A DNA stretch of 64,000 nt from Bacteroidota bacterium (GCA_048498995.1 JBEHWX010000014.1:8921-72920), one strand, 5' to 3'; counted from the first letter of the stretch, positions 5,252 to 57,210 are shown. The notes: generated by a model from the sequence alone, not told the origin. A program made the numbers and translations.

Positions 5252-10519
<5,268 letters not shown>

Positions 10520-11295
10520 TGGTGGACCGACGCGCCGGATACCGGACAGTCGCGTGGTCTGCGGATCGTTCTCATCGGAATGCGATCGCGCCCTCGGGAC
10601 ATCCGGCCGGGGAATCGGATGACGCATCGCCGGAGATCGCGCCGATCGCATCGCGCAAATATACGGCATGCCGCACCTGCCGCGATGCGGACGATATATG
10701 GATATATGAGGTATTGGAAGATGGCTGTCGATCCGCCCGGTCGGCGCCGCTCAACCGGCGATCAAGGCGGCCACCTGGTGCCCCACCCGACGACCGAATC
10801 CGTGTCGACGGCGAACGCGATGGCGGGAGATTTCGATCTCGATCGGAGATAACGACGGTGTTCCTCATCACCGAGTCTCATCGTCATGACGATGTGGGAA
10901 GGGATGATGGAGCGGGGCCCGGCAACCACCTCGCGCCTCGTCGAGATGGGATGTTCGTTGCCGGAGAAGGCATTCGCGTCGCCGTGGACGAACGGCCGCA
11001 TCCGTTGGCTGGATATTTCGGATCGGGAAATGGTCGCGCGGGGAGCTGTATGATTCGTCGCGCGCGCCCGTGGTCCGCGATGAGCTCCGGAGAGCGTTGG
11101 GATGATAAACGCGCGAGGTGGGAAGCAGGTGATGGCGTGTGTCCGCGGATTGCAACCGTATCGGCCGGCACGCGGCGAACCGATGTCTGCCGCGCGAGTC
11201 CGAGTGCCGTCATGGAGAGAGTCGCGCGCGGGGAGAATCTCGTCGACCTTCTACCGTCGCGACGCTCGAATCGTTCGATGCTGGCGGATGCCGGG

Positions 11296-11637
11296 AGTAG
11301 GGAGGGATGCGCGCCTCGGGCCGAACCCAGGGAGGGTTCTCATCAGTCTTCTGCCGCAAAAAGCTGCAAGCCCGTGCTGTGCCACGACTCCCGGATCATT
11401 TCGATGAAGAAGAGAGAGTGATGCGCGCCTCGGGTCGAACCCGGGGAGGGTTCTCATCAACCTCCCGCGCCGCAATGGCAACCAGCTCTCGTTGTGCGGC
11501 GCGAGCCTCTGGAACGTTTCGATGCCGATGGATGAAGAGAAGAGAGAGGGATGCGCGCGGCTGCGCCGCGCGGCCCTTCGGCGCTACGCGCCTCCGGGTC
11601 GAACCCAGGGAGGGTTCTCATCAGCCTCCCGCGCCAC
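11296..11637. repeat. Three degenerate direct repeats (~115-130 bp period), each resembling the tRNA-Ser 3' end plus its terminator
   Basis: The cores lie at 11304-11346, 11418-11460 and 11548-11624. Each reads (GA)nGGGATGCGCGC..CTCGGGTCGAACCCAGGGAGGGTTCTCATCA, compared with GAGAGAGGGATTCGAACCCTCGG in the tRNA 3' end. The spacers are decayed copies of the AAAAAGCAACAGGGCTCGCGC hairpin. Confidence 0.6.
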
Positions 11638-11684
11638 AAAAAGCAACAGGGCTCGCGCTTGCGGCGCGAGCCCTGTTGCTTTTT
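11638..11684. terminator. Bidirectional rho-independent terminator
   Basis: AAAAA-GCAACAGGGCTCGCGC-TTGCG-GCGCGAGCCCTGTTGC-TTTTT forms a 16-bp perfect stem flanked by an A-run and a T-run. It lies immediately 3' of the minus-strand tRNA-Ser. Confidence 0.8.
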
Positions 11685-11685
11685 G

Positions 11686-11776
11686 CGGAGAGAGAGGGAT
11701 TCGAACCCTCGGTAGCGGCTAATACCACTACGACGGTTTAGCAAACCGTTGCCTTCAGCCACTCGGCCATCTCTCC
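11686..11776 (-). tRNA. tRNA-Ser (anticodon GCU)
   Basis: The reverse complement reads GGAGAGATGGCCGAGTGGCTGAAGGCAACGGTTTGCTAAACCGT-[long variable arm CGTAGTGGTATTAGCCGCTAC]-CGAGGGTTCGAATCCCTCTCTCTCCG. It is a class II tRNA with a 7-bp acceptor, the anticodon loop TTGCTAA, a T-loop TTCGAAT and discriminator G. No CCA is encoded. Confidence 0.85.
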
Positions 11777-12369
11777 GAGTCTCGAAGCATTCCCTCTGGT
11801 CGCGCCGGTCGAAACGGCGATCGTCACCGAAGGGATCGCAAAGATAAGCAAAGGAGGAGGGAATGACCGCGAGAGTTGGCGCTTCGATGAAAAATTTTTT
11901 CTCTCCGATCCGATCCTCTTCCTCCATTACGGAGGAGAATAGGGGATACGCCCGATCGCATCGAGCAACGAGGGGCCTTTCGCATAGGGGGCTGGTAACA
12001 TCCACCGTGGCAGATTACCTGTTGCATCCCGTAACGTCTTGGCGTATGTTTGTCCCGCTCACTTGTGAAGAGGCCAACTACGCACCGCTGAATGTCGGAT
12101 CAAGGGCTCACCTCCCCGTAATTGAGGCCGACGTTATTTGATCGGAAGAAATCCGAGACGAAACAACCTCGAACTTTCAATTCTCTGATTCTCGAACACG
12201 CTCGACCGGGCGGCCACTAGTACGAACCGCACGCACAAGCGCTCTGTCGATCGTTGCCATACGTACGCACCGCAGCTACTGACAATATCATCCCCCTCGA
12301 AGAACGTTCCGCACGCGAGCGTGACAGGGCTGCTCATTGTCACAAGCGAATCTCAGCAACGGATCCACC

Positions 12370-15300
12370 ATGAAAAACTCGGCTACAACGACGTTGCGAG
12401 CCCTCTCGATCTGCATGCTCATGCTCGGGATCGGGGGAAGCGCTCAGGCGCAGTCGACCGGACGGCGCGTGATCGCGCATGTCGTCGCTCTCGACCAACC
12501 CTACATGTTCAATCGTCTCGGCGCCGCCCAACCGGCCGGGATGATCTACGCGCTTCTGCGCGACATCGTCCCGATCGACAAGTCGAAGGGGCTTGTCGCC
12601 GGCAACGTCCGTCTTCGGAGCGGCAAGCGTCCGCGTCCGATCGTCCTGCGCGTCAATCAGGGGGATACGCTCACCATCTACTTCACCAACTATCTCAAGC
12701 CCGCCACGCCCGGCGCCACGCTCAGTCCCTACCCGCCGCAGACGGTGACGATGGACACGCTGGCCTCGGGCCTCGGGGCAACCGAGACGCGCTACGCCGG
12801 CATCCATATCATGGGGCTGCAGCCGCTCGACACGATCAACTCCGACGGCACCTGGGCCGGCGCCAACGATGACGGACAGGTCGCCCCCGGAGGCTCGACC
12901 GTCTACAACCTCTACGCGCCGGAGCAGGGGAGCTTCCTTCTCTACAGCATGGCGGCCACCGCCAGCGGCACCGGCAACTCCAAGCCGGGCGCGTTCTCCT
13001 CGAGCACCTTCAACGTCGGCCAGATGCAGCTCGGACTCTTCGGCTCGGTCGCCGTCGAGCCTCCCGGCGCCGAGTGGTACCGCAGCCAGGTCACGCAGCT
13101 CGATCTGGCCGCCGCGACCACGAAGTGGATCGACTCCACCGGCAAGACCGTCACGCCGCTGACCGGCTATCCGGTGATCAACTACCAGGCACAGATCCTC
13201 GGCGTGCCGGTCCTGAGCATGCTGCAGAAGGCCGGCGCCGATTCGCTCGAGCTGGTCTACTCCGATCTGACCGCGGTGATCACCGGTCCGAACGCGGGGC
13301 CGTTCACCAACACGTCGAACGATCCGACCTTCGATCAGAACCCGGCCTATCCGAACCGGACGCAGCCGTACCGCGAGATCGTGCTCCACTATCACGAGCC
13401 GCAGAACGCGGCGGTGCAGGCGTTCCCGACCTTTTACGGCAGTCAGAAGACGCTGCTGACCTCCTCCGGCGGCGACAACTTCGCCATCAACTACGGCATC
13501 GCCGGCATCGGACCGGAGATCTACGCCAACCGCATCGGCGTGGGCCCGATGGACAGCTGCGTCAACTGCGCCTACGAGGAGTTCTTCCTCAGCTCCTGGG
13601 CCGTCGGCGATCCGGCGATGGTCGTGGATATTCCGGCCAACGCCAGCTCGGCGACAACCGGCGCGGCCGACAGCTCGCTGCAGACGCAGATGATGTACTC
13701 GGTCGGCGCCACCGTGCCGAACCCGCCGCCGACGCCGGCGCTCGGACCAAAGGCCTCCGTCGCCTATTTCCCGGACGATCCCTCGAACGTCTATCACTCG
13801 TATCTGGGTGACCACACCGTGTTCCGCGTGCATCACGCGGGCGCCGGCGTGACCCACATCCATCATCAGCACGCGCATCAGTGGCTCCGCTCGCCGAACA
13901 GTGCCAACAGCGATTATCTGGACAGCCAGACGATCGATCCGGGCTCGTCCTACACGCTGGACATGACCTATTTCGGCAGCGGCAACAAGAACCTGACCGT
14001 GGGAGATCAGATCTTCCACTGCCATTTCTACCCGCACTTCGCGCAGGGAATGTGGGGACTCTGGCGCGTGCACGACGTGCTGGAGATCGGCTCGATCCTG
14101 AACCCGCTGAACGGCCATCCGATCGCCGGAACGCGCGCGCTCCCGGATGCCGAGATCAAGACCGGCACGCCGATCCCGGCCATCGTCCCGCTGCCGACGC
14201 TGGCCATGGCCCCGGTGCCGGGCGCCGTCGCCATCGATCAGACCTCCGGCCAGATCGTGATCAAGGACACGACCCGCAACCCGGGCTTCCCCTTCTTCAT
14301 TCCGGGCGTCTCCGGCAGCCGCGCTCCGCAGCCGCCGATGGACTTCGCCTCCGGCGTCTTCTACAAGCCGGACGGCTATGGCGGGATGACGCGTGACAGC
14401 GGAACGCTCAACGGCGGACTGCCGCGCCACGTCGTGGTCGGCGGCAAGGTGGTCTGGCAGCAGATGACCAGCACCGACTGGACCAAGATCATCGACACGC
14501 TCGTCGCCATCCAGCTCCCGGATTCCGGCACCACGGTGGAGAAGGTCGCCATGAGCTTCCATGCCGTGCGCAACCACACCACGGTGACCCCCAGCGGCGC
14601 CACCGGCGCGACCTTCACGACCAACGGCCGTCCGCCGGCGCCGGGCGCTCCGTTCGCCGATCCGGCCGTCGACATGAACGGCAACCCGATCGCCAACAAG
14701 CGAGTCTACAAGGCCGCCGCCATTCAGATGGACGCGGTGTTCAACAAGAAGGGATGGCACTTCCCGCAGCAGCGGATGCTGATGCTCTGGGACGACGTGA
14801 AGCCGACGATCGCCGGAACGCGCCCGCCGCAGCCCTTCTTCTTCCGCGTCAACAGCAACGAGTACGTCGAGTTCCAGCACACCAACCTGGTCCCCGGCTA
14901 CTATGAGCTCGACAACTTCCAGGTCCGCACGCCGACCGACATCATCGGCCAGCATATCCACCTGGTGAAGTTCGACGTCACCTCCTCCGACGGCGCGGCC
15001 AACGGCTTCAACTACGAGGACGGCACCTTCGCGCCGGATCAGGTGGTCGAGCGGATCCACGGCATCAACGACGGACAGCTCTACGCCTACAAGTTCCGTC
15101 CGGGCGTGCCGGTCTCCAGCTACGCCGGCCTGCAGTCGCTCCCGGATCTGGCGCCGACGATGCCGGACACGACCGTCTTCGGCCAGCCGCCGAGCTACAA
15201 CCAGCAGAGCTGGCTCGGCGCGCAGACCACGATCCAGCGCTGGTACGCCGATCCGCTGCTGAACAACGCCGGCGTCGACCGGACGATGCGGACCGTCTTC

Positions 15301-18027
15301 ACGCACGACCACTTCGGCCCCTCGACCCACCAGCAGGCGGGACTCTACGCCGGCCTGCTGATCGAGCCGAGCGGCTCCCTCTGGATCGATCCGGTGACCG
15401 GCGACACGATGGGTGGGACGATCGGCACCACGCAGATCGTCAAGCGCCCCGACGGCGGCCCCACCGGCTGGCAGGCCAACATCATCGGCTCCAATCCGAC
15501 GCAGAGCTATCGCGAGTTCGCGCTGGAGTTCCAGGATCTTCAGCTGGCCTACTACGCGCCGAGCCGGAGCAGCTTCACGCCGTATCCGGTCTGGACCGGC
15601 GACACGACGGCCGCGTTCCTCGCCGGCGTCAAGGCCTACAACGGCTGGGTCGACAACAACAACTATCTCGGCAACAGCGCCACGATGGCGCAGCAGCTGA
15701 TCTCCAGCTCCGGCAACATCGGCACCTACTCCCTCAACTACCGGAACGAGCCGATCCCGCTCAGGACCGCGAGCTACCCGCAGACCAGCTCCACCGTTCC
15801 GCAGGCCAGCGGCTCGGCCGGCGATCTTTCCTACGCCTTCAGCTCGGACGTGCAGCGCGCCGACCCGAGCCTGAACTCGCAGCCGGCGACCGGCTCGGCG
15901 ATCGCCTCCGGCTCGGTCTTCACCTATCCGCAGACCGCGCTGACGCCGGGGATGGATCCGGGGGATCCGTTCACGCCGCTGCTGCGCGCCTATCAAGGAG
16001 ATAGCATCCAGATCCGGACGCTGGTCGGCGCCCATCTGCTGCCGCACTCGGTAACGGTGCATGGCGTCGACTGGCTCTACGAGCCGTCGGAGCCGAACTC
16101 CGGCTTCCGCTCATCGTACGTCGCGTCGCTGTCGGAGCACTTCGAGCCGAACTTCCGTCTGCCGAACACCAGCACCGGCAACGCCGACTTCCTCTACTCG
16201 ACGAGCCTGAGCGGCAACGGCCTGAACAACGGCCTCTGGGGAATTCTCCGCGGCTACAAGTCGACGACCAGCTCGCTGGTGGCGCTGCCGAACAACACGC
16301 CGGGGTACTCCTCGCAGAACTGCGGCTGCCCGACCGGAGCGCCGGTGCGCACCTACACGGTGGTGGCGATGTCCGCGCAGGCCGCGCTCGACTCCACCGT
16401 CGGCAACCCGGCCAACGGGGCGCTGGTCTACAATCCGAAGTTCGGCTTCAGCGATCCGAACGCGATCATCTACTTCCGCCAGTCCGATCTGACCGGCGGC
16501 ACCTACAACCGCTCCACCGCCGTCGAGCCGCTGATCCTGCGCGCCCGTCCGGGAGAGTGCGTGAAGGTGACGCTCGTCAACAAGTTCAATCCGACGACCG
16601 ACAAGACCTTCAGCACGCTGACCGGTCTGACGAGCATCTGGAAGAACGCCAACTCGCTCTACTCCAGCCTGGTCTACCAGGCCAGCCCGTCGTCGCGCGT
16701 CGGCCTGAACGCGCAGCTTCTCTCCTACGACGTCACCACGAGCGATGGCTCGCGTGTCGGCCACAACGCCGACCAGACCATCGCGCCCGATTCCACGCGC
16801 ACCTATTCCTGGTACGCCGGCATCTGGCAGAAGAGCGGCAGCGGCTACACGCCGGTGCCGGTGGAGTTCGGCTCGGCCAACCTCACCGCTCCCGATCCGC
16901 TTCTGCAGTGGAAGTACGGTCTGATCGGCTCGATCGTCGTCGAGCCGTCCGGATCGGTCTGGACCGAGGATGCCGGGTCGCACGCCTCGGCCACGGTCTT
17001 CGCCAGCAGCAGCGACAGCGCACAGAACAAGCCGGCCTTCCGCGAGTTCGTCACGATGCTGCAGAACAACGTGTCGGTGTCGCAGAACAGCTCGTCGTAC
17101 ACGGCGGTCAACTACCGCACCGAGCCGCAGCAGAACCGCGTCTCCAGCACCGTCACCAACCTGGCCAAGGCCAACCTCGCGGCCATGTACGCCGACTCCG
17201 CCTTCGGGCAGACGATCGGCGGGCTCCCGTCGACGCCGATCTTCACCGCCTCGGCCGGCACGCCGATCCGCGTGCGCATGCTGCACGCCTACGGCACCGG
17301 CACCAGCTCGAACATCGCGATCAACGGATATCCGTGGCAGGAGGAGCCGTATCAGAACAACTCCACGACGATCGGCACCAACCCGCTGTCGGAGTGGATG
17401 GGCGCGCGCAGCCTGCTTCTGTCGGCCAACAGCTACGATCTGCTGCTCGGCCCGGCCGGCGGACCCGGCGGCACCACCGGCGACTACCTCTATGCCTCGT
17501 ATGTCAAGAACGACAACTACACCGGCATGTGGGGGGTGATGACCGTCACGCCGCCGCGGGAGGACGCCGTGCGGATGATCGCCGCTGACCTGCAGAAGAT
17601 GGAGATCAAGGGACAGAACACGGTCGATCCGACGACGAACAAGTTCGCCAGCACGATCAACGTGTACTCGGTCAAGGGAGCCTCGCGCACCCTGATCGGG
17701 ACCATCCCGGTCGACACCTCCAACGGCTCCTGGAAGCTGGCGACCAACGTGCTCACGCGCCAGGGAAAGACGATGCTGCAGAAGCTGATCAACTCGCAAT
17801 CCGACCTTCTCCTGGTCTCCGGCGAGGGAGGAAGCATCAAATTCACGAACTCCGAGCTGAAGACCTTCGAGGCGGTGCGTCGCGCCGAGGAGACCGCGCG
17901 CGCGGTGAAGGCGCCGAGCCAGACGCCGGACCTCACGCGGCCGCTGCTGCCGGGCGAGCAGCCCTTCGTGGCTCCGCTGAAGCCGGTGACGGTCAGCAGC
18001 GGCAAGGACAAGAAGAGCGGGGAATGA
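12370..18027 (+). CDS. Giant secreted multicopper oxidase family protein (MnxG/MofA-like, putative Mn(II)/metal oxidase)
   Basis: The 1,885-aa product has a signal peptide (MKNSATTTLRALSICMLMLGIGGSAQAQ). Type-1/type-3 copper motifs include HCHFYPHFAQGMWGLWRVHD (HCHxxxHxxxxM), VHHAGAGVTHIHHQHAHQW, HIHLVKFDV and FTHDHFGPSTHQQAGLY. The size and multiple cupredoxin-like repeats fit 6-domain MCOs. Confidence 0.65.
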   Translation: MKNSATTTLRALSICMLMLGIGGSAQAQSTGRRVIAHVVALDQPYMFNRLGAAQPAGMIYALLRDIVPIDKSKGLVAGNVRLRSGKRPRPIVLRVNQGDTLTIYFTNYLKPATPGATLSPYPPQTVTMDTLASGLGATETRYAGIHIMGLQPLDTINSDGTWAGANDDGQVAPGGSTVYNLYAPEQGSFLLYSMAATASGTGNSKPGAFSSSTFNVGQMQLGLFGSVAVEPPGAEWYRSQVTQLDLAAATTKWIDSTGKTVTPLTGYPVINYQAQILGVPVLSMLQKAGADSLELVYSDLTAVITGPNAGPFTNTSNDPTFDQNPAYPNRTQPYREIVLHYHEPQNAAVQAFPTFYGSQKTLLTSSGGDNFAINYGIAGIGPEIYANRIGVGPMDSCVNCAYEEFFLSSWAVGDPAMVVDIPANASSATTGAADSSLQTQMMYSVGATVPNPPPTPALGPKASVAYFPDDPSNVYHSYLGDHTVFRVHHAGAGVTHIHHQHAHQWLRSPNSANSDYLDSQTIDPGSSYTLDMTYFGSGNKNLTVGDQIFHCHFYPHFAQGMWGLWRVHDVLEIGSILNPLNGHPIAGTRALPDAEIKTGTPIPAIVPLPTLAMAPVPGAVAIDQTSGQIVIKDTTRNPGFPFFIPGVSGSRAPQPPMDFASGVFYKPDGYGGMTRDSGTLNGGLPRHVVVGGKVVWQQMTSTDWTKIIDTLVAIQLPDSGTTVEKVAMSFHAVRNHTTVTPSGATGATFTTNGRPPAPGAPFADPAVDMNGNPIANKRVYKAAAIQMDAVFNKKGWHFPQQRMLMLWDDVKPTIAGTRPPQPFFFRVNSNEYVEFQHTNLVPGYYELDNFQVRTPTDIIGQHIHLVKFDVTSSDGAANGFNYEDGTFAPDQVVERIHGINDGQLYAYKFRPGVPVSSYAGLQSLPDLAPTMPDTTVFGQPPSYNQQSWLGAQTTIQRWYADPLLNNAGVDRTMRTVFTHDHFGPSTHQQAGLYAGLLIEPSGSLWIDPVTGDTMGGTIGTTQIVKRPDGGPTGWQANIIGSNPTQSYREFALEFQDLQLAYYAPSRSSFTPYPVWTGDTTAAFLAGVKAYNGWVDNNNYLGNSATMAQQLISSSGNIGTYSLNYRNEPIPLRTASYPQTSSTVPQASGSAGDLSYAFSSDVQRADPSLNSQPATGSAIASGSVFTYPQTALTPGMDPGDPFTPLLRAYQGDSIQIRTLVGAHLLPHSVTVHGVDWLYEPSEPNSGFRSSYVASLSEHFEPNFRLPNTSTGNADFLYSTSLSGNGLNNGLWGILRGYKSTTSSLVALPNNTPGYSSQNCGCPTGAPVRTYTVVAMSAQAALDSTVGNPANGALVYNPKFGFSDPNAIIYFRQSDLTGGTYNRSTAVEPLILRARPGECVKVTLVNKFNPTTDKTFSTLTGLTSIWKNANSLYSSLVYQASPSSRVGLNAQLLSYDVTTSDGSRVGHNADQTIAPDSTRTYSWYAGIWQKSGSGYTPVPVEFGSANLTAPDPLLQWKYGLIGSIVVEPSGSVWTEDAGSHASATVFASSSDSAQNKPAFREFVTMLQNNVSVSQNSSSYTAVNYRTEPQQNRVSSTVTNLAKANLAAMYADSAFGQTIGGLPSTPIFTASAGTPIRVRMLHAYGTGTSSNIAINGYPWQEEPYQNNSTTIGTNPLSEWMGARSLLLSANSYDLLLGPAGGPGGTTGDYLYASYVKNDNYTGMWGVMTVTPPREDAVRMIAADLQKMEIKGQNTVDPTTNKFASTINVYSVKGASRTLIGTIPVDTSNGSWKLATNVLTRQGKTMLQKLINSQSDLLLVSGEGGSIKFTNSELKTFEAVRRAEETARAVKAPSQTPDLTRPLLPGEQPFVAPLKPVTVSSGKDKKSGE

Positions 18028-18083
18028 GACGAAGCTCCCGACGGCCCATGCCGGAGGCGAGAGGATGAAGAAGATCCGACACG

Positions 18084-20105
18084 ATGACTATGACGATGAC
18101 TGATGACATGACGAGCTCGACCCGACGCGGGTGCTCGAAGCCTCGATGGATGCGGCCGCTCCGCGCGTGGACCCTGGCGCTCGCGCTGCTGGGCGCTCTC
18201 TCGGTCGACGCGCGCTCGCAGGGCGTTTCCGGCTCCTATCGCCGCGAGGTGATCGAGGAGGGGGTGCGCGTGGAGCTGGCGATCGATCCGGTCGACGGCT
18301 CCCAGCAGGGGAAGGAGTTTCACGAGGGGGAGAATGTCAGGGTCCGCTTCAGGATCTCCGACACCGTCTCCGGCACCGGGATCTCCGGCGCCTCGCCGGC
18401 CGCCTGGATGGATCTGCGGCGAGGCGCGCCGCTGGCCGGCAGGGAGTGTACCGAGCGAGTGGCCAACCATCTCGGCGGCGGCCTCAGCTCCCGAGCGGAT
18501 ATGGATCTGACGATCTACTACGTGCTGACGCTGAACGACGACGGGACGATCCACGTGGTCGATCCGATCTTCGGTTACGGCAACACCCGTCTGCTGGCGC
18601 AGGTGGAGCTACCCGCTCCGGGCGTCGACTGGGCGCTGGCCGAGGAGGGGGAGAAGCTCTTCGTCTCGATGCCGGCCGCCGGCGCGGTGGCGATCATCAA
18701 CACGGCGACCTGGAAGGTGACGGACACCGTCCGGGTCGCCGGCGTTCCCGCCCATGTGCTCCTCCAGCCGGATGGGCGCTATCTCTGGGTGGAGTATCAG
18801 CGGGCCGGCGGCGGCGGAGCCATCTCCGGCGTGGCGGTGATCGACGCGGTCACCGGCAGGCTTGTGCGCGAGCTCGAGACCGGCCACGGCGCGCACACGA
18901 TGGCGGTCGATCCCGACGGACGCTTCGCCTTCATCACCAACACGCTCGACGGAACGGTGACCGTGATCGACGCGCGCGATCCGCGCGTGCTGGCGCAGGT
19001 GCCGGTCGGTGGGCATCCACTGTCGATCTCCTACTCGCCGGTGGCGGCGGCGGCCTACGTGGCCGACTCCCGCGGCGCGGTGAGCGTGGTCGACGGCCGC
19101 TCGCATCGCGTGATAGCGCGCGCGCCGGCCGATACCGGCATCACCAGCATCAGGTTCGCCCCGGGCGGGCGCTTCGCCTTCATCGTCAGCCCGGAGAAGA
19201 ACCGCGTGCTGGTGCTCGACGCGGCCACCAACCGCGTGATCCAGAGCGCGAAGGTCGACTCGATTCCCGATGCCGTCTACTTCTCCGACCGGCTCGCCTA
19301 CGTGCGCCACGTGGCCAGCGAGAGCGTGCTCATGATCCCGCTCGACGGGGTCGGACGGGAGGGGGCGCCGCTGTCGGTGGTCAGTTTCCCCGGCGGGGAT
19401 TTCCCTCCGGGGCGCTTCAACACGCCGACCTTCGCCGACGGCGTGGTGCAGGCTCCGGGGGAGGGGGCGGTGCTCGTGGCCAACCCGCTCGATCGCGCGG
19501 TCTACTACTACTCCGAGGGAATGGCCGCGCCGATGGGAAGCTTCAGCAACTATCGGAAGGAGGCGCGCGCCGTGCAGGTGCTCGACCGGAGCCTCCACGA
19601 GAAGGCGCCCGGAGAATACCAGACGGTGGTGCAGCTCGGCGCCCCCGGCACCTACGATATTTCCTTCCTGCTCGACGCTCCCCGGATCATCCATTGCTTC
19701 GAGCTGGAGGTGAAGCCGGAACAGCAGGCGATGATCAAGCGCGTCGGCACCGCGGCCGGCCCGCTCGCGGTGACGTTTCTCGACGCGCCGCCGGCGGTGA
19801 AGAGCGGCAGCGGCACCACCGTGCGCTTCACGCTCAGCGATCCGGCCACGATGGCGCCCATCTCCGGACTTCGCGATGTGCAGATGCGCGGCATGCTCGC
19901 GGCCGGACTCTGGTGGGAGGATGTGGCGGCCACCGAGACCGCCACGCGCGGCACCTACGAGGCCTCGATCACGCTTCCCGATCCGGGCGCCTACTATTTC
20001 TACGTCGGCTGCCCCTCCCGTGGGATGGGCTTCAACAACGCACAATTCAAGGTCGTCCGGGCTCTTCCGGACCAGGAGGTGATGGAGGATCATGCGAGCA
20101 GGTAA
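18084..20105 (+). CDS. Secreted YVTN-family beta-propeller repeat protein
   Basis: Signal peptide after internal Met (MRPLRAWTLALALLGALS; start could be 18150). Repeated ~40-aa units read 'G..P..L..S.DG..LYV..' (AGVPAHVLLQPDGRYLWVEY; GHGAHTMAVDPDGRFAFITNTLDGTVTVID; GGHPLSISYSPVAAAAYVADSRGAVSVVD). It overlaps the next gene by 14 nt. Confidence 0.55.
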   Translation: MTMTMTDDMTSSTRRGCSKPRWMRPLRAWTLALALLGALSVDARSQGVSGSYRREVIEEGVRVELAIDPVDGSQQGKEFHEGENVRVRFRISDTVSGTGISGASPAAWMDLRRGAPLAGRECTERVANHLGGGLSSRADMDLTIYYVLTLNDDGTIHVVDPIFGYGNTRLLAQVELPAPGVDWALAEEGEKLFVSMPAAGAVAIINTATWKVTDTVRVAGVPAHVLLQPDGRYLWVEYQRAGGGGAISGVAVIDAVTGRLVRELETGHGAHTMAVDPDGRFAFITNTLDGTVTVIDARDPRVLAQVPVGGHPLSISYSPVAAAAYVADSRGAVSVVDGRSHRVIARAPADTGITSIRFAPGGRFAFIVSPEKNRVLVLDAATNRVIQSAKVDSIPDAVYFSDRLAYVRHVASESVLMIPLDGVGREGAPLSVVSFPGGDFPPGRFNTPTFADGVVQAPGEGAVLVANPLDRAVYYYSEGMAAPMGSFSNYRKEARAVQVLDRSLHEKAPGEYQTVVQLGAPGTYDISFLLDAPRIIHCFELEVKPEQQAMIKRVGTAAGPLAVTFLDAPPAVKSGSGTTVRFTLSDPATMAPISGLRDVQMRGMLAAGLWWEDVAATETATRGTYEASITLPDPGAYYFYVGCPSRGMGFNNAQFKVVRALPDQEVMEDHASR

Positions 20106-21516
20106 CGGATCGATCACCAGGAGTCTCCTCCCCCTTCTCCTCGCGGCGGCAATGATCCCCTCCTCGGGGCTGCTGGCGCAGACGAAGAAGGGGAGCTGCT
20201 GTGCTCCAGCCTCCAAGAGCGCCAGCGGCAAGGGCGCCAGCGGCAAGGGCGCCAGCGGCAAGAGCGCGGCGTCGAAGAGCGCAACGAAGGGGAAGGCCAC
20301 CAACTCCTGCTGCGCCCCCTCCGCCTCCGCCGCGAAGGCCGGCGACTCCGCCGATGCCTCGGCCGGACAGGTCTCCGTCTCGACGCTTCCGGACGTGACG
20401 CTCGTGAACCAGAACGGTGAGCGGGTCAGGCTTCACGATCTGATCCGCGGCAGGGTGGTGGCGATGAACTTCATCTTCACCACCTGCACCACGATCTGCC
20501 CGCCGATGGGGGCGAACTTCTCGCGGCTGGTCGATCTGATGGAAGATTATGTCGGCAAGGACGTGGCGATGATCTCGGTGAGCATCGATCCGGTGACCGA
20601 CACGCCGGAGCGGCTTCGGGCCTGGAGCCAGAAGTTCGGCGCCTCCGCCGGATGGACTCTGTTGACCGGCGCCAAGGACGACGTGGACGCGCTGTTGAAA
20701 GCGCTGAAGGTCTACACGCCGGCCAAGGAGAATCACACGCCGACGATGATGATCGGCGGCGCCGATGGCACGTGGATCCGCGCCAACGCGCTTGCCGCGC
20801 CGGAGACCCTGGCGAATGCCATCAAGGGGAAGCTCCCGAAGGAGCGGGTCAGGATCGTGGAAACGGTGGCGAATCTGGCTCGTGAGCGTCGCCCCCTGCC
20901 GCGCGTCGCGGTCACGCATGGCCTCACGAATGATCCGCAGTCGATGGTGGCGACATCGGCGCCCGCCGCGGCCGCACCCGCTACGACCGCGCCTTCGGTT
21001 GCCGCGCGGGGCGTGGCCGGAAACGACGATGCCGACCGGCAGTACTTCTCCGACCTGAAGCTGAAAAACCAGTTCGGCGAGGAGATGCGCTTCTACTCCG
21101 ATCTGCTGCGGGACAAGGTGGTGGTGATCGACGTCTTCTTCGCGCGCTGCACCGGAAGCTGCCCGGTGATGAGCACGACGATGAGCCGCCTTCAGGAGCA
21201 TCTCGGCGACCACGTCGGCAAGGATGTGAACCTGATCTCGATCACCGTCGACCCGGAACACGACACGCCGGAGACGCTCGGCGACTACGCGGATCGCTTC
21301 GGCGCGCGTCGCGGTTGGTACTTCCTCTCCGGCGCGCCGGAGGAGGTGCATCAGGTGCTCAAGCGGATCGGCAACGACGTGGGCCGCCCCGACGAGCACA
21401 AGACGATCATGCTCGTCGGCAACGTCCCGACGCGCCTCTGGAAGAAGGTGGATGGACTTTCCCCGGCCGACGAGATCATTCCGGTCGTCGACGCCATTCT
21501 CAAGGACAGGAAGTAG
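20092..21516 (+). CDS. Tandem SCO1/SenC (thioredoxin-like copper chaperone) protein with Cys-rich GKGAS-repeat N-terminus
   Basis: Two SCO1-type domains each carry a CxxxC motif and an invariant His region. The first reads VVAMNFIFTTCTTICPPMGANFSRL...ISVSIDPVTDTPERLRAWSQKFGASAGWTLLTG. The second reads VVIDVFFARCTGSCPVMSTTMSRL...ISITVDPEHDTPETLGDYADRFGARRGWYFLSG. The N-terminal region is SCCAPASKSASGKGASGKGASGKS...SCCAP. Confidence 0.7.
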   Translation: MRAGNGSITRSLLPLLLAAAMIPSSGLLAQTKKGSCCAPASKSASGKGASGKGASGKSAASKSATKGKATNSCCAPSASAAKAGDSADASAGQVSVSTLPDVTLVNQNGERVRLHDLIRGRVVAMNFIFTTCTTICPPMGANFSRLVDLMEDYVGKDVAMISVSIDPVTDTPERLRAWSQKFGASAGWTLLTGAKDDVDALLKALKVYTPAKENHTPTMMIGGADGTWIRANALAAPETLANAIKGKLPKERVRIVETVANLARERRPLPRVAVTHGLTNDPQSMVATSAPAAAAPATTAPSVAARGVAGNDDADRQYFSDLKLKNQFGEEMRFYSDLLRDKVVVIDVFFARCTGSCPVMSTTMSRLQEHLGDHVGKDVNLISITVDPEHDTPETLGDYADRFGARRGWYFLSGAPEEVHQVLKRIGNDVGRPDEHKTIMLVGNVPTRLWKKVDGLSPADEIIPVVDAILKDRK

Positions 21517-21525
21517 GCGGACCCG

Positions 21526-23076
21526 ATGATCTCGATCCGCACGATGGTGACGAAGAAGCCGGGCGCTCCGATGCTCCTGCTGTCGATGGCCGCGCTCCTG
21601 GCGGCCGCGACCATGCTCGTTCACGCCGACGGGTCTCCGGCGGTGGAGCGTGGGAGAAAGATCTATCGCGAGGGAGCCGAGGGAATGGTCGCCGTCGTCT
21701 CCGGCACGCCGGTCGCATCCTCCGTGCTCCCGTGCGGAAGCTGCCACGGTGCCGATGGACGGGGACGTCCCGAGGGGGGCGTCAAGCCCTCGAATCTGAC
21801 GTGGGAGGAACTGACGCGCGACCGGTCCGGGAGCGCCGACGGACGCCGGCATCCCGGCTATACCGAGAAGCAGCTGCGCCGCGCGATCACGATGGGACTC
21901 GATCCGGCCGGCAACGCGCTGCAGGCGGCGATGCCCCGCTACCGGATGTCGAATCAGCAGATGGACGATCTGATCGCCTATCTGAAGGTGCTCGGCGGCG
22001 AGCGGGATATGGGGCTGAGCGACTCGACGATCGAGACCGGCACCCTCTTCGGCTACCGGTCAGGCGGCGATGACGTCGGCGCCGCGATGCTCGAAACGAT
22101 CCGTGCCTGCTTCGACGAGGTCAACGGCCGCGGTGGGATCTACGGACGTAGAATCGTGCTGGCCGCTCCCTCCGCGGCCGACTCCACGCCGGAGCGTCTG
22201 CGGCAGTTCATCGCGCGGAGCGCGCCGTTCGCGATGGTCGGCTCGATCGGCGCCGGCGTGAACGATGATCCCTCGACGATCGCGGCCGAGCGTCGCACGC
22301 CGCTGGTCGGCGCCGTGGCCGCCGAGCCGCGACGGGACGCGGCGGAGGCGGGGATCTTCTATCTCTTTCCGGGACTGGCCGGCGAATGCGGCGCGCTGGT
22401 GGCGCACGCGATCCGGCATCTCGATGTCGATCACGCCCGCGGAGTGGTGCTGCACGACGGAGCCCCGCTGGACAGCACGCTGGCCAGGGCGCTTACCGAT
22501 ACCGCGGGGGGGCTCGGATGGAAGGCGCTCGTGCCGTTGCGGGTGCCGGACGATCCGGCGGGGCGCGACGCCCTGCTCAAGGAGCTGAGCCGCCAGGATT
22601 CGCTGGTATTGGTCATGCTGCTGCCGCCGGCGGTCCAGGCCGATCTGCTGCGCCGGCTTCCGGCCGGCTGGCGGCCGCGGCTGCTGGTGCCGTCGTCGCT
22701 CTGGGTGCTCGACCCCGGCACGATCCCGGCCGCTCTCGACGGCAGGATCTACATCTCCTATCCACTCTGGCGTGCCACGACCGCGGGAGCGGCCGAGTAC
22801 GACGCGCTGCGCCGGAAATACCGTCTCGGCGAGAACTGGCGCAGCTACCGGCTTGCCGCGCTCGCGTCGGCCAAGATCTACATCGAGGCGCTGATGCGCT
22901 CCGGCCGCGACCTGAGCCGGGAAACGCTCCTGGCGCGTCTGCGCGCGTTGTACCGGTTCGATACCGGCGTGATTCCTCCGGTGACGTTCGGGCCGAACAG
23001 AAGCATCGGCTCCACCGAGGTCTTCATCGCCCGCGTCGATCTGAGTCGCAAGAAGCTCGACCTGGTCGGCGACTGA
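21526..23076 (+). CDS. Fusion protein: mono-haem cytochrome c domain + periplasmic ligand-binding (type-1 PBP / LivK-like) domain
   Basis: A signal peptide is followed by the CxxCH motif (LPCGSCHGADGRG) and a c-type cytochrome fold region (AAMPRYRMSNQQMDDLIAYLK). Residues ~170-516 resemble Leu/Ile/Val-binding proteins (GYRSGGDDVGAAMLETIRACFDEVNGRGGIYGRRIVL). Confidence 0.55.
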   Translation: MISIRTMVTKKPGAPMLLLSMAALLAAATMLVHADGSPAVERGRKIYREGAEGMVAVVSGTPVASSVLPCGSCHGADGRGRPEGGVKPSNLTWEELTRDRSGSADGRRHPGYTEKQLRRAITMGLDPAGNALQAAMPRYRMSNQQMDDLIAYLKVLGGERDMGLSDSTIETGTLFGYRSGGDDVGAAMLETIRACFDEVNGRGGIYGRRIVLAAPSAADSTPERLRQFIARSAPFAMVGSIGAGVNDDPSTIAAERRTPLVGAVAAEPRRDAAEAGIFYLFPGLAGECGALVAHAIRHLDVDHARGVVLHDGAPLDSTLARALTDTAGGLGWKALVPLRVPDDPAGRDALLKELSRQDSLVLVMLLPPAVQADLLRRLPAGWRPRLLVPSSLWVLDPGTIPAALDGRIYISYPLWRATTAGAAEYDALRRKYRLGENWRSYRLAALASAKIYIEALMRSGRDLSRETLLARLRALYRFDTGVIPPVTFGPNRSIGSTEVFIARVDLSRKKLDLVGD

Positions 23077-23205: not shown

Positions 23206-24714
23206 GTGATCACGACGTCTCTCATCGCTACGATCGATACCCCGCTCTCCGGCGAGCTGCATGAGCTTGCCGAAGCTGCGGACGCCGTCGGCTCGCTCGA
23301 AGTGCGGGCCGATCTGGTCGGAGACATTCCGGAGCCCCGACTGCGGGAGCGCTTTCCCGGAAGCCTGATTTATTCGCTCCGGAGCGCCGCCGAGGGAGGG
23401 TCCTTCGACGGCGACGCCTCGGCGCGGCGCGAGCTTCTGGCGGCCGCCGCCGAGAAGTTCGACCTCGTGGAGCTGGAGGGGGAGCGGGATCTGCTTCCGG
23501 AGATCCTGGAGGTGGTGCCCGCGGCAAAGCGGATCATCTCCTGGCATGGGGCATCGGAAAGCCTCGCGCGGCTCGACCGGCGGCTCGACCGCTACACCGC
23601 CGTGCCGGCCGCGCTCTACCGTCTCGTTCCCGATGCCGCCTCGACCGCCGAGGCGCTTCTGCCGCTCCGGCTTCTGGCCGCGCGCCGCCGCGCCGATATC
23701 ATCGCCTATGCCTCCGGACGCCATGGCTCCTGGACCCGCGTGATCGCCCCGCACTTCGGCGCGCCAGTGGTCTTCGCGCCGATCGTCGAGAGCGGACGCG
23801 ATCCGTTCGCCTTCGGGATCCGACGGCTGATGGAGGATTACGGCCTGCCGCTGCTTCGTCCGGTCAAGCAGATCTTCGGCATCATCGGCACCGCCGTCGC
23901 GCACTCCCTCTCGCCGCGTCTGCACAACGCCGGCTATCGCGAGCTCGGATATCCCGCTCTCTACTTTCCCTTCCATGCCGAGCGGCTCGCCGAGTTCCGC
24001 GCGGCGATGGAGGGGCCGGAGGGGCTTGCCGCGCTCGGCATCCGGTTCGGCGGCGGGACGATCGCCGCGCCGCACAAGGAAGACGCCGTTGCCGCCGCGC
24101 GGATGAGCAACCGGCTCTGCGTGATCGCCAACGCCGCCAACAACATCGTGGTCTCCTCCGAGGCCTGGATCGCCAGCACCACCGACTCGGTCGGGGTGCA
24201 GGAGCCGCTGATGCGGCGCGGCATCCCGATCGCCGGGCTTCGCGTGCTCATCGTCGGCTGCGGTGGCGCCGGGCGCGCGATCGCGGCCTCGCTGAAGCTC
24301 TGCGGCGCGCGCGTGACGCTGATGAACCGCGGTCGCGATCGCGGCCTGCACGCCTCCCGGCTGCTGGGCCTTCCGCTGCTGCCGTTCTCCGAGGATCTCG
24401 TGCACGATTTCGACGTCGTGATCAACGCCACCTCGGTCGGGCGCAATCCGGAGGAGGAGCCATTCTCGGTGCGGAGTCTGCCGGCGGCCGCGATCGTGAT
24501 CGACCTGATCTACGGCGCCTCCACGACCCGGCTGATCTCCGAGGCGCGCGAGCGTGGGATGACCTGCATCGACGGCCGGGAAGTGCTCCGCGCGCAGGCG
24601 CTGGCGCAGTTCCGGCTGCTGACCGGGCTCTCGCTTCCGCGGCCGATCGTCGACGGCATTCTCGGCCGCGACGAGCAGGCGGTTCCGAGCGCGCTGGCCG
24701 TTCCCGGCTCCTGA
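23206..24714 (+). CDS. aroDE: Bifunctional 3-dehydroquinate dehydratase (type I) / shikimate 5-dehydrogenase
   Basis: The C-terminal half carries the AroE signature (IFGIIGTAVAHSLSPRLHNAGYRELG) and a Rossmann motif (VLIVGCGGAGRAIAASL). The N-terminal ~220 aa are AroD-like, TIM-barrel-like. Confidence 0.8.
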   Translation: MITTSLIATIDTPLSGELHELAEAADAVGSLEVRADLVGDIPEPRLRERFPGSLIYSLRSAAEGGSFDGDASARRELLAAAAEKFDLVELEGERDLLPEILEVVPAAKRIISWHGASESLARLDRRLDRYTAVPAALYRLVPDAASTAEALLPLRLLAARRRADIIAYASGRHGSWTRVIAPHFGAPVVFAPIVESGRDPFAFGIRRLMEDYGLPLLRPVKQIFGIIGTAVAHSLSPRLHNAGYRELGYPALYFPFHAERLAEFRAAMEGPEGLAALGIRFGGGTIAAPHKEDAVAAARMSNRLCVIANAANNIVVSSEAWIASTTDSVGVQEPLMRRGIPIAGLRVLIVGCGGAGRAIAASLKLCGARVTLMNRGRDRGLHASRLLGLPLLPFSEDLVHDFDVVINATSVGRNPEEEPFSVRSLPAAAIVIDLIYGASTTRLISEARERGMTCIDGREVLRAQALAQFRLLTGLSLPRPIVDGILGRDEQAVPSALAVPGS

Positions 24715-24755
24715 AAGCTGCGCGCTCGACATTCATCGACAACACTCACTCTGCC

Positions 24756-25157
24756 ATGCACCTGACGACCTACATGCGCGGCGACGCGATGGTTCCCGAA
24801 GGAGGGACGATCGATCTGGAGCCGATGCTCGGACGCTGGACCAATACCAACAGCGAGACGATCTACATCGAACGGTTCGAGACCTGGCTCGAGGAGGGGC
24901 GGCTGATGCTCCGCGTCTTCGGCGTCGGGACCGAGAAGGGGGCGCCGATCGACTGGGGAGCGATCGAGGTACAGCCGTACGGCAATCCCTCCACGCTCGA
25001 CCCGGCCGGCTTCCACGGACACTACCGGCTGGAGACGGTCGACGTGCTGCTGGCGGTCAACTACGCCAGGGGCATTCTGGTGATACAGACGTACAGCACC
25101 TTCAGCGACGGCAGCGGCCGCATTCCCTACCAGACGCGAGAGTTCTTCCATCGTTAA
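24756..25157 (+). CDS. Hypothetical small protein (paralogue A)
   Basis: This is a 133-aa ORF. It is paralogous to the next gene: GRWTNTNSETIYIERF versus GQWRNSNPKSTGISSFTL, and C-terminal YQTREFFHR versus YFAREYYFHE. Confidence 0.4.
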   Translation: MHLTTYMRGDAMVPEGGTIDLEPMLGRWTNTNSETIYIERFETWLEEGRLMLRVFGVGTEKGAPIDWGAIEVQPYGNPSTLDPAGFHGHYRLETVDVLLAVNYARGILVIQTYSTFSDGSGRIPYQTREFFHR

Positions 25158-25204
25158 CAGGCGCCGGCGCGGGAGCTTCCCGACGCCGGCTTCCGGAGGT
25201 ATAC

Positions 25205-26825: not shown

Positions 26826-26829
26826 GTGC

Positions 26830-29584: not shown

Positions 29585-29633
29585 GCTCACCGGCCCTGTC
29601 GCGGCCGGCCCACATAACCTGGAGGATCGAGAC

Positions 29634-38588: not shown

Positions 38589-38616
38589 CCACCAACTCCA
38601 GCAAGGACAGTAAACA

Positions 38617-42116: not shown

Positions 42117-42272
42117 CACTCCGGTATCGGCGCGGACTCGTTATTCCGAGTCCGGATCAAATGCAGTGCCCCGAGCCGAACGGGCCCGCGATTACGACTT
42201 GAATATGACATATCGTCTCGTTATCCAACGAGCACCACGCAACCATTCACGGCAAGACTCAAGCAAGATCCC

Positions 42273-55230: not shown

Positions 55231-57200
<1,970 letters not shown>

Positions 57201-57210
<10 letters not shown>

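What the first reader, a model, noticed from the sequence alone, without database searches (positions are those of the whole stretch)
12370..23076. Giant (1,885-aa) secreted multicopper oxidase with a dedicated copper-delivery/electron-transfer gene set
Typical multicopper oxidases are ~500 aa. This one is the size of the MofA/MnxG Mn(II)-oxidising MCOs and carries at least two full sets of copper-site histidine motifs. It is followed on the same strand by a secreted YVTN beta-propeller protein, a protein with two SCO1/SenC copper-chaperone domains, and a cytochrome c-PBP fusion. This reads as a self-contained periplasmic metal-oxidation module with Cu insertion and electron relay. Mn(II) oxidation or another metal/organic oxidase role is plausible but unproven.
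Basis: partly seen in the sequence, partly recalled or inferred. Interest (0 to 1): 0.6.

Follow-up and report, generated by a model that had tools for sequence, protein, structure and literature searches.

The report
MnxG-type manganese oxidase operon
This is a Kapaibacteria-lineage copy of the already described Pseudomonas-type mnxG operon (a giant exported copper oxidase plus its propeller, copper-chaperone and cytochrome partners), so it is a probable manganese-oxidising system of a known kind, not a new one.

Summary
The four genes exist as described: a 1,885-aa exported protein (12370-18027), a YVTN beta-propeller, a protein with two Sco domains, and a cytochrome c/solute-binding fusion. 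They are tightly packed on one strand.

The protein is nevertheless a multicopper oxidase:
- It matches the NCBIfam Pseudomonas MnxG profile end to end (1160 bits, below the 3100 cut-off).
- It matches solved Bacillus MnxG (9bxa, E 2e-93).
- Both AlphaFold halves hit 9bxa first.
- One canonical copper-ligand set is invariant in 60 homologues. This is one set, not the "two full sets" claimed.

Gene order equals the published P. putida GB-1 mnxG operon, minus the SurA-like gene and with the two Sco genes fused. That order recurs in most of 59 informative loci, mainly Acidobacteriota, Proteobacteria and Bacteroidota.

Mn(II) oxidation is the best inference (about 0.6) and is untested. The "electron relay" role has no support.

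Verdict: new member of a known kind, modest interest. A cytoplasmic/membrane gene module downstream (23206-28353) is a recurrent but facultative neighbour.

The parts
12370..18027 (+). mnxG-like gene: 1,885-aa exported six-cupredoxin-domain multicopper oxidase. It has a Sec-type signal peptide at about aa 1-28. The C-terminal extension (aa ~1728-1885) is absent from the Pseudomonas MnxG profile.
13855..13872 (+). Cu motif HxxHxH (H496, H499, H501; H498 is also invariant). It supplies a T1 His and T2/T3 His ligands.
   Evidence: Invariant in 14 and in 60 homologues. Aligns to Bacillus MnxG H281/H284/H286.
14017..14052 (+). Cu motif HCHxxxHxxxxM (H550, C551, H552, H556, M561). It supplies the T1 Cys, His and Met and two T3 His. 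This is the only HCH in the protein.
   Evidence: H556 aligns to position 340 of Bacillus MnxG, the residue mutated in PDB 9bxa ('Mnx H340A').
14953..14961 (+). Cu motif HxH (H862, H864), trinuclear-centre ligands.
   Evidence: Invariant. Lies in the block aligned to Bacillus MnxG 426-559.
15304..15312 (+). Cu motif HxH (H979, H981), trinuclear-centre ligands.
   Evidence: Invariant. Aligned to Bacillus MnxG 568-611.
18084..20105 (+). Exported YVTN-type beta-propeller protein with a YtkA-like Ig domain at the C-terminus. The likely true start is 18150, giving 651 aa and the signal peptide MRPLRAWTLALALLGALSVDA.
   Evidence: Present in 47 of 59 informative mnxG loci.
20092..21516 (+). Exported protein with two SCO1/SenC thioredoxin-fold domains (CxxxC at aa 132 and 353). 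A low-complexity linker after the signal peptide carries two SCCAP motifs.
   Evidence: Sco genes are present in 42 of 59 loci. They are fused in 15 of the 46 Sco-bearing relatives' loci by the script's >=380-aa cut-off, plus 7 further single ORFs of 344-379 aa.
21526..23076 (+). Exported fusion of a class I cytochrome c (CGSCH at aa 70) to a Peripla_BP_6 (LivJ-like) solute-binding domain. No ABC permease or ATPase gene was identified among the adjacent genes.
   Evidence: Present in 39 of 59 loci.

Best explanation
The region is a homologue, in a Kapaibacteria/Chlorobi-group bacterium, of the Pseudomonas-type mnxG operon.

Proposed mechanism:
1. MnxG is made with a Sec-type signal peptide and exported unfolded. 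It folds outside the cytoplasm into a ceruloplasmin-like array of six cupredoxin domains.
2. It carries one type-1 copper (H496, C551, H556, M561) and one trinuclear copper centre (H499, H501, H550, H552, H862, H864, H979, H981) at the interface of domains 2 and 3.
3. Because export is by Sec and not Tat, copper must be inserted in the periplasm. The co-encoded protein with two Sco domains (CxxxC...H) is the likely Cu(I) chaperone/thiol reductase pair for this step.
4. The enzyme takes single electrons from Mn(II), and then Mn(III), at the T1 site. It passes them internally to the trinuclear centre, where O2 is reduced to water. The product is insoluble Mn(III/IV) oxide.
5. The beta-propeller and the cytochrome c/solute-binding fusion are conserved partners of unknown role. 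They may be structural or maturation subunits. The cytochrome may supply reducing equivalents for Cu(II)-to-Cu(I) or Sco thiol reduction.

Shown here: the genes, the signal-like N-termini, ligand conservation, the fold and the synteny. Inferred: copper loading by Sco, Mn(II) as substrate, location, and the partner roles.
For: - NCBIfam NF041487 (MnxG) is the only family hit, at 1160 bits. It is matched collinearly, query 32-1727 to profile 3-1894.
- PDB 9bxa_A, Bacillus MnxG: E 2e-93, collinear blocks.
- AlphaFold models have pTM 0.85 and 0.87. Both give 9bxa as the top Foldseek hit (E 3e-30 and 2e-42), followed by two-domain laccases, ceruloplasmin and factors V/VIII.
- All 11 canonical Cu ligands and the axial Met are invariant in 60 homologues.
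- Gene order is identical to the P. putida GB-1 mnxG operon (PMC11409713 Table 4; PMC8218464).
- Of 59 loci with at least 6 kb downstream, the propeller is present in 47, Sco in 42 and the cytochrome c/SBP fusion in 39, across several phyla.
- Both characterised relatives oxidise Mn(II). In GB-1 the mnxG mcoA double knockout makes no Mn oxide, and MnxG alone carries Mn(II) through to Mn(IV) (PMC12269067). Bacillus Mnx is the best-characterised Mn oxidase (bioRxiv 10.1101/2022.11.10.515945).
- Cytochrome c maturation genes are needed for Mn oxidation in P. putida (PMC11409713 text). This fits an operon-encoded c-type cytochrome.
Against: - No activity data exist for this protein or for any Bacteroidota or Acidobacteriota member.
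- The score is far below NCBI's equivalog cut-off (1160 against 3100). Every non-Pseudomonas homologue I tested scores the same way, 1000-1200 bits.
- Identity to Bacillus MnxG is only about 20-22% in the structure-based alignments.
- I could not obtain the GB-1 sequence, so I could not compute identity to it.
- The SurA-like sixth gene and the sigma-54/MnxS-MnxR type regulators seen elsewhere are absent here.
- No accessory protein has an experimentally defined role.
- AlphaFold confidence is low exactly at the copper-ligand loops. That is expected without metal, but it means site geometry was not checked.
Confidence: 0.62

Rival explanations
1. The enzyme family and architecture are the same, but the physiological substrate is not Mn(II). 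Candidates are Fe(II), Cu(I), a phenolic or catecholic compound, or a general periplasmic oxidative-stress or copper-homeostasis role. Any Mn oxidation would then be a side activity.
For: - Multicopper oxidases are promiscuous. The Mn-oxidase survey notes that CueO and CotA oxidise Mn in vitro, yet it set them aside as doubtful oxidases.
- The window protein is below the MnxG equivalog cut-off.
- It sits in a clade (Bacteroidota/Acidobacteriota) with no tested member.
- In about one sixth of related loci, the neighbouring module starts with a dehydroquinase/shikimate-dehydrogenase-like gene, which could in principle give aromatic products.
Against: - The two characterised members, Bacillus and Pseudomonas MnxG, are only 25% identical to each other, yet both are Mn oxidases. 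This brackets the family.
- No normal-size laccase or bilirubin oxidase is a closer relative. The best non-MnxG PDB sequence hit has E 0.42.
- The downstream module usually occurs without mnx genes.
Confidence: 0.28
2. The module is an energy-conserving (lithotrophic) Mn(II) oxidation system. Electrons from Mn(II) would be relayed through the cytochrome c fusion into the respiratory chain instead of going to O2 at the oxidase's own copper centre. This is the 'electron relay' part of the first reader's reading.
For: A c-type cytochrome is encoded in the operon and is conserved in 39 of 59 loci. Cytochrome c maturation is required for Mn oxidation in P. putida.
Against: - The complete trinuclear O2-reducing site is invariant, so the oxidase needs no external acceptor.
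- The Mn(III)/Mn(II) and MnO2/Mn(II) couples are too oxidising to reduce a typical class I cytochrome c favourably (established redox chemistry, not tested here).
- No respiratory complex genes are linked.
- P. putida, which has the same operon, is a heterotroph and is not known to grow on Mn(II) (own knowledge).
Confidence: 0.04
3. The large protein is not a multicopper oxidase at all. On this view the Pfam-negative result is correct and the histidine motifs are chance.
For: Pfam reports no Cu-oxidase domain (best E 3.1). Most database homologues carry no Pfam domain and many are named 'hypothetical protein'.
Against: - E 2e-93 to solved MnxG.
- Foldseek E 1e-30 to 1e-42 to 9bxa, and 1e-9 to 1e-19 to laccases and ceruloplasmin.
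- All canonical ligands are invariant in 60 sequences at 29% mean column identity.
- Some homologues do carry PF07732 or PF07731.
Confidence: 0.01

Closest known systems
Pseudomonas putida GB-1 mnxG operon (PputGB1_2447 and downstream genes; NCBIfam NF041487)
   Same: - A protein of about 1,900 aa, matched collinearly to the Pseudomonas MnxG profile over profile positions 3-1894.
- The same partner set in the same order: YVTN beta-propeller, SCO1/SenC, SCO1/SenC, cytochrome c + amino-acid-type solute-binding protein.
- A predicted Sec-type signal on the window protein.
   Different: - The score is 1160 bits against the 3100 equivalog cut-off.
- The two Sco genes are fused into one.
- There is no SurA-domain sixth gene.
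- No sigma-54 regulator or sigma-54 promoter is nearby.
- There is an extra C-terminal extension of about 158 aa: a beta-sandwich, a helix and a disordered tail.
- The host is in the Kapaibacteria/Chlorobi group, not the Gammaproteobacteria.
Bacillus sp. PL-12 Mnx complex (MnxG with MnxE/MnxF; PDB 9bxa)
   Same: - A homologous six-cupredoxin-domain oxidase (E 2e-93; top fold hit for both halves).
- The same permuted motif order: T1/HCH motifs in domain 2, HxH motifs in domain 3.
- The T1 His mutated in 9bxa (H340) corresponds to H556 here.
   Different: - Bacillus MnxG is 1,217-1,227 aa. The window protein is about 650 aa longer, through insertions and a C-terminal tail.
- Identity is only about 20-22%.
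- The partners differ. Here they are a propeller, a two-domain Sco protein and a cytochrome c/SBP fusion, not the small MnxE/MnxF subunits.
- This is not a spore-coat context.
Ceruloplasmin / coagulation factor V-VIII type six-domain cupredoxin proteins
   Same: The overall six-domain cupredoxin architecture is recovered by fold search.
   Different: - About 10-12% identity.
- In ceruloplasmin the trinuclear centre lies between domains 1 and 6 and there are three T1 sites (established knowledge). Here a single T1 site and the trinuclear ligands lie in domains 2 and 3.
McoA-SCO1 pair of P. putida GB-1, and MofA (Leptothrix) / MoxA (Pedomicrobium) Mn-oxidising MCOs
   Same: These are Mn-linked multicopper oxidases. 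mcoA is likewise followed by a SCO1/SenC gene.
   Different: No NCBIfam or Pfam evidence links the window protein to these families. The only hit is MnxG.

Membership tests
Multicopper oxidase superfamily | Cupredoxin-fold domains | tested here: met
   AlphaFold models (pTM 0.85 and 0.87) hit 9bxa MnxG, two-domain laccases (TM about 0.7 on the target), ceruloplasmin and FV/FVIII.
Multicopper oxidase superfamily | Four copper-binding motifs giving 10 His + 1 Cys (T1 site plus trinuclear centre) | tested here: met
   HxxHxH 496-501, HCHxxxHxxxxM 550-561, HxH 862-864 and HxH 979-981 are all invariant in 60 homologues.
Multicopper oxidase superfamily | Pfam Cu-oxidase models (PF00394/PF07731/PF07732) above the gathering score | tested here: not met
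   No hit at E<=0.01; best is PF07731 at E 3.1, 8 bits. The precomputed domain column for related proteins is mostly empty as well.
Multicopper oxidase superfamily | Bound copper and O2-dependent oxidase activity | not testable with these tools
   Needs purified protein.
Pseudomonas-type MnxG (NCBIfam NF041487, equivalog) | Whole-protein score at or above the curated cut-off (3100 bits) | tested here: not met
   1160 bits. Massilia, Undibacterium, Duganella, Aquimarina and a gammaproteobacterial homologue also score 1000-1200 bits.
Pseudomonas-type MnxG (NCBIfam NF041487, equivalog) | Full-length collinear architecture of about 1,900 aa | tested here: met
   Query 32-623, 776-1249, 1360-1568 and 1575-1727 match profile positions 3-588, 821-1299, 1470-1694 and 1721-1894.
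Pseudomonas-type MnxG (NCBIfam NF041487, equivalog) | Operon partners: YVTN propeller, two SCO1/SenC, cytochrome c/SBP fusion, SurA-domain protein | tested here: inconclusive
   The first four are present in the same order. The SurA-like gene is absent; the next gene is AroD/AroE-like. A SurA_N+DsbA gene is present in 11 other loci.
Pseudomonas-type MnxG (NCBIfam NF041487, equivalog) | Control by a sigma-54 response regulator with sensor kinases (MnxR/MnxS1/MnxS2) | tested here: not met
   No sigma-54 activator lies among the neighbouring genes and no -24/-12 match lies upstream of mnxG. Such regulators sit upstream in 11-12 other loci. A distant regulator cannot be excluded.
Pseudomonas-type MnxG (NCBIfam NF041487, equivalog) | Mn(II) to Mn(III/IV) oxidation | not testable with these tools
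   Needs an LBB assay or genetics.
Bacillus Mnx complex | MnxG catalytic subunit homologue | tested here: met
   phmmer E 2e-93 in collinear blocks. Top fold hit.
Bacillus Mnx complex | Small MnxE/MnxF subunits encoded alongside | tested here: inconclusive
   The tightly packed operon (gaps +122, -14, +9 nt) leaves no room for about 110-aa genes. I made no direct sequence comparison with MnxE/MnxF.
SCO1/SenC copper chaperones | Thioredoxin fold with CxxxC and a distal His, exported | tested here: met
   PF02630 twice. CTTIC at aa 132 and CTGSC at aa 353. His in ENHTP and DEHKT. Nearest PDB entries are B. subtilis Sco/YpmQ, Thermus Sco1 and Bradyrhizobium Blr1131. An N-terminal signal-like segment is present.
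Class I c-type cytochrome | CxxCH haem-binding motif in an exported domain | tested here: met
   PF00034 E 7e-8. CGSCH at aa 70 and a hydrophobic N-terminus at aa 13-32.

The most novel reading that the evidence does not exclude
The mnx genes and the gene set immediately downstream may form one functional super-cluster. The downstream set comprises an AroD/AroE-like fusion, two tandem family-less ~135-aa paralogues, a DszC/SfnB-like flavoenzyme, and a multi-pass membrane protein fused to an LMW-phosphatase/ArsC-like domain, often followed by PhyH-like and glycosyltransferase genes. On this reading a cytoplasmically made, exported small molecule or glycoconjugate works with the extracellular oxidase. 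It could act as a Mn(III) ligand, a redox mediator, or a matrix on which the oxide is laid down. That would be a component of bacterial Mn oxidation not described so far.
Probability: 0.1. Interest if true: 0.6.

Novelty: new member of a known kind. Interest (0 to 1): 0.3.

Why it matters
Practical points:
- Pfam-based pipelines miss this enzyme family. Many homologues are labelled 'hypothetical protein'.
- The complete mnxG-type operon is common outside the phyla where Mn oxidases are usually counted. Of the 80 best species-level loci, 50 are Acidobacteriota, 12 Proteobacteria and 10 Bacteroidota. A 2022 survey placed 98% of Mn oxidase homologues in Proteobacteria, Actinobacteria and Firmicutes.
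- If these enzymes are active, soil Acidobacteriota and Kapaibacteria/Flavobacteriia would be under-appreciated contributors to Mn oxide formation.

For this window the result is mainly a confident annotation, not a discovery.

Tried and rejected
It returned nothing, even at E<=10. I rejected it as uninformative because profile, PDB and fold evidence agree on a multicopper oxidase.
- **Search for a second copper site set.** There is only one HCH and one canonical set. Other conserved His (342, 476, 568, 797, 987, 1222, 1226, 1257) form no recognisable MCO motif.
- **Upstream genes as part of the system.** The CheB-CheR-PAS-kinase-receiver gene (5252-10669, minus strand) and the CDF cation exporter (3540-4688) were tested. 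Neither is conserved next to mnxG in the closest relatives, so I rejected both.
- **Sigma-54 promoter upstream of mnxG.** No match in the 11777-12369 interval. The sigma-70 and terminator scans were at chance level.
- **Rfam scan.** It found only tRNA-Ser and no riboswitch.
- **Downstream module as an obligate part of the cluster.** Seeding a metagenome scan on its flavoenzyme showed that the AroDE-flavoenzyme-membrane protein trio is nearly always together. Mnx genes were nearby in only about 5 of about 24 long loci. I therefore treat it as a facultative neighbour.
- **Obtaining the P. putida GB-1 MnxG sequence or the Geszvain 2013 paper.** Neither was available. The plasmid collection gave only unannotated alphaproteobacterial homologues.
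- **Exact look-up of the window protein's contig.** Nothing on record.
- **Literature search for the 9bxa paper.** Not found.


Full report
**Observation.** The window is about 65% GC, so long chance ORFs occur on both strands. Third-position GC separates the real genes.
- 12370-18027 (+) has GC3 0.91 and encodes 1,885 aa from the first ATG.
- A 99% identical protein with the same start is called on an independent Logan contig that carries the same downstream genes.
- Three genes follow with gaps of +122 (or +56), -14 and +9 nt.
  - The beta-propeller protein (18084/18150-20105) has TIGR02276 YVTN repeats and a YtkA-like C-terminal domain.
  - A 474-aa protein (20092-21516) has two SCO1/SenC domains, each with CxxxC.
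  - A 516-aa protein (21526-23076) is a class I cytochrome c (CGSCH) fused to a Peripla_BP_6 solute-binding domain.
- All four begin with a signal-peptide-like segment and none has a twin-arginine motif.
- One detail is not. There is a single HCH and a single canonical set of multicopper-oxidase motifs, not 'at least two full sets'.

Pfam finds nothing, even at E<=10. Four independent lines show this is a blind spot of those models.
1. NCBIfam NF041487, 'manganese-oxidizing multicopper oxidase MnxG' (a 1,894-position model), is the only hit, at 1160 bits. Scanning the protein in four pieces shows a collinear match, query 32-1727 to profile 3-1894.
2. The only strong PDB sequence match is MnxG of the Bacillus sp. 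PL-12 Mnx complex (9bxa_A). E is 2e-93 in ordered blocks.
3. AlphaFold models of residues 1-1100 (pLDDT 78.6, pTM 0.85) and 1001-1885 (pLDDT 84.9, pTM 0.87) each retrieve 9bxa first (E 3e-30 and 2e-42). Two-domain laccases, ceruloplasmin and factors V/VIII follow. The fold is a ceruloplasmin-like six-cupredoxin array.
4. In alignments of 14 and 60 homologues (29% mean column identity), H496, H498, H499, H501, H550, C551, H552, H556, M561, H862, H864, H979 and H981 are invariant.

The motif order is permuted relative to three-domain laccases: HxxHxH and HCHxxxHxxxxM come first and the two HxH motifs later. The motifs align with the same motifs of Bacillus MnxG. The residue mutated in 9bxa ('H340A') corresponds to H556, the second type-1 His. 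The last ~158 residues lie beyond the Pseudomonas profile. They are predicted as a small beta-sandwich, a helix and a disordered tail.

**Context and comparison.** The gene order matches the putative mnxG operon of Pseudomonas putida GB-1. [quoted passage not shown] 2). The window differs in two ways: the two Sco genes are fused, and there is no SurA-like gene.
- Of the 80 best loci, 50 are Acidobacteriota, 12 Proteobacteria, 10 Bacteroidota and 8 others.
- Among the 59 loci with at least 6 kb downstream of mnxG, the propeller is present in 47, Sco in 42 and the cytochrome c/SBP fusion in 39, mostly in the same order.
- Fused Sco genes are common, including in all close Bacteroidota relatives, Pyxidicoccus and Massilia/Undibacterium.
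- Other loci add a SurA_N+DsbA protein downstream, and a sigma-54 response regulator plus an RR-PAS-kinase upstream. These echo the SurA gene and MnxR/MnxS of P. putida. The window has neither, and no -24/-12 promoter lies upstream.

**Host.** The host's adenosylhomocysteinase is 87-88% identical to proteins from Candidatus Kapaibacterium and 'Chlorobi bacterium' MAGs. The nearest named MnxG relatives are from the same group at 55% identity. The operon therefore looks native to a Kapaibacteria/Chlorobi-Ignavibacteria-group bacterium.

**How it most likely works.**

*Shown:* an exported six-domain oxidase with one T1 copper and one trinuclear centre, plus three exported, co-conserved partners.

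*Inferred:*
- Export is Sec-type, so copper must be inserted outside the cytoplasm.
- The two Sco domains have complete CxxxC...His sites. Their nearest solved relatives are B. subtilis Sco, Thermus Sco1 and Bradyrhizobium Blr1131. They are the obvious candidates for Cu(I) delivery and thiol reduction.
- Mn(II) is oxidised one electron at a time at the T1 site, and O2 is reduced to water at the trinuclear centre.
- Support for Mn comes from bracketing. Bacillus and Pseudomonas MnxG are only 25% identical to each other (bioRxiv 10.1101/2022.11.10.515945), yet both are Mn oxidases. In GB-1 the mnxG mcoA double knockout makes no oxide, and MnxG alone takes Mn(II) to Mn(IV) (PMC12269067).
- The propeller's nearest solved relatives are an archaeal S-layer YVTN protein, hydrazine synthase beta, NirF, YncE and thiocyanate dehydrogenase. 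Its role is unknown.
- The cytochrome c/SBP fusion also has no defined role. It may explain why cytochrome c maturation genes are needed for Mn oxidation in P. putida.
- An 'electron relay' away from the oxidase is not needed and not supported, because the O2-reducing site is intact.

*Probabilities:* about 0.6 that Mn(II) is the physiological substrate, about 0.3 for another substrate or role, and a few per cent for a respiratory (lithotrophic) relay.

**Membership.** The protein is a multicopper oxidase by fold and ligands, and a full-length homologue of both MnxG types. It fails NCBI's equivalog threshold (1160 against 3100 bits). So do all non-Pseudomonas homologues I tested, which means that threshold delimits the Pseudomonas clade only. 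I file it as a MnxG-family member with the Pseudomonas-type operon, not as a proven Mn oxidase.

**Outside the coordinates.** The next genes on the same strand recur next to mnxG in 9-14 of the 80 loci (window included), depending on the gene. These loci span Bacteroidota, Acidobacteriota, Alpha- and Gammaproteobacteria, in varying arrangements. The genes are:
- an AroD/AroE-like fusion (23206-24714);
- two tandem paralogues with no family (24756-25157, 25205-25618);
- a DszC/SfnB-like acyl-CoA-dehydrogenase-fold flavoenzyme (25611-26825);
- a protein of at least 8 TM segments fused to an LMW-phosphatase/ArsC-like domain (26830-28353);
- a PhyH-like dioxygenase (29253-30476).

Except for the multi-pass membrane protein at 26830-28353, those I checked (the AroD/AroE-like fusion, the two small paralogues and the flavoenzyme) lack signal peptides. 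A reciprocal metagenome scan seeded on the flavoenzyme shows that the AroDE-flavoenzyme-membrane protein trio is almost always together. Mnx genes are within reach in only about 5 of about 24 long loci. The trio's other neighbours are glycosyltransferases, a GINT1_N-type protein and a luciferase-like monooxygenase. I read it as a separate, probably glycoconjugate-related unit that is a recurrent but facultative neighbour. A functional link is possible (about 0.1) but not shown.

**Verdict.** This is a real, intact, well-conserved system of a kind already described genetically in Pseudomonas and structurally in Bacillus. It is new only in host lineage and in minor architecture (a fused Sco protein, no SurA gene, a C-terminal extension). 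Interest is modest. The useful general points are the Pfam blind spot and the abundance of this operon in Acidobacteriota and Bacteroidota, compared with a 2022 survey that placed 98% of Mn oxidase homologues in three other phyla.

Noticed in passing
window 23206-28353 and 29253-30476 (+): A conserved module sits directly downstream of the mnx genes. It comprises an AroD/AroE-like fusion, two tandem ~135-aa paralogues with no Pfam or NCBIfam family (each has an N-terminal LGxWxNxN motif), a DszC/SfnB-like flavoenzyme (50-78% identical across phyla), and a protein of at least 8 TM segments fused to an LMW-phosphatase/ArsC-like domain, followed by a PhyH-like dioxygenase. It lies next to mnxG in 9-14 of 80 genome loci. 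It is found without mnx genes in most metagenome loci seeded on the flavoenzyme. Its function is unknown, and its neighbours elsewhere are glycosyltransferases.
   Followed up: partly
window 37044-50555 (+), with 35210-36535 and 55231-57210: Eight tandem paralogous genes of 504-561 aa each carry Phage_sheath_1 + Phage_sheath_1C domains. An HTH/LuxR-type regulator precedes them and an AAA ATPase with a winged-helix domain follows. This looks like an extracellular contractile-injection-system locus. From my own knowledge, eight sheath paralogues is more than such loci usually carry (one to three).
   Followed up: no
window 11299-11776: Three direct copies of a ~56-nt element (core GCGCCTCGGGYCGAACCCRGGGAGGGTTCTCATCA) lie just beyond the 3' end of tRNA-Ser(GCT) at 11685-11776 (-). 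There is also a 34-nt inverted repeat at 11625-11697. These may be remnants of integration events at the tRNA, or a small repeat family.
   Followed up: partly
window 20092-21516, aa 30-90 of the two-domain Sco protein: The linker after the signal peptide is Ser/Lys/Gly/Ala-rich and carries two SCCAP motifs (CC at aa 36 and 73). A single CC at a similar position occurs in the Kapaibacterium and Flavobacteriia orthologues. It could be an extra Cu(I)-binding site. Not tested.
   Followed up: partly
window 5252-10669 (-): A 1,805-aa single polypeptide combines a CheB methylesterase, a CheR methyltransferase, multiple PAS domains, a histidine kinase and a receiver domain. It is divergent from the mnx genes and is not conserved next to mnxG in close relatives.
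   Followed up: partly
related proteins P0003, P0006, P0039, P0044 etc.; loci L001-L080: Many full-length MnxG homologues in public records are named 'hypothetical protein' and carry no precomputed Pfam domain. Of the 80 best species-level loci, 50 are Acidobacteriota. A 2022 survey, by contrast, placed 98% of Mn oxidase homologues in Proteobacteria, Actinobacteria and Firmicutes.
   Followed up: partly
L057 (DYGR01000032.1): A full-length MnxG homologue with a weak propeller match downstream sits on a 34-kb contig binned as Candidatus Methanoperedens nitroreducens, an archaeon. This is either horizontal transfer or a binning error.
   Followed up: no
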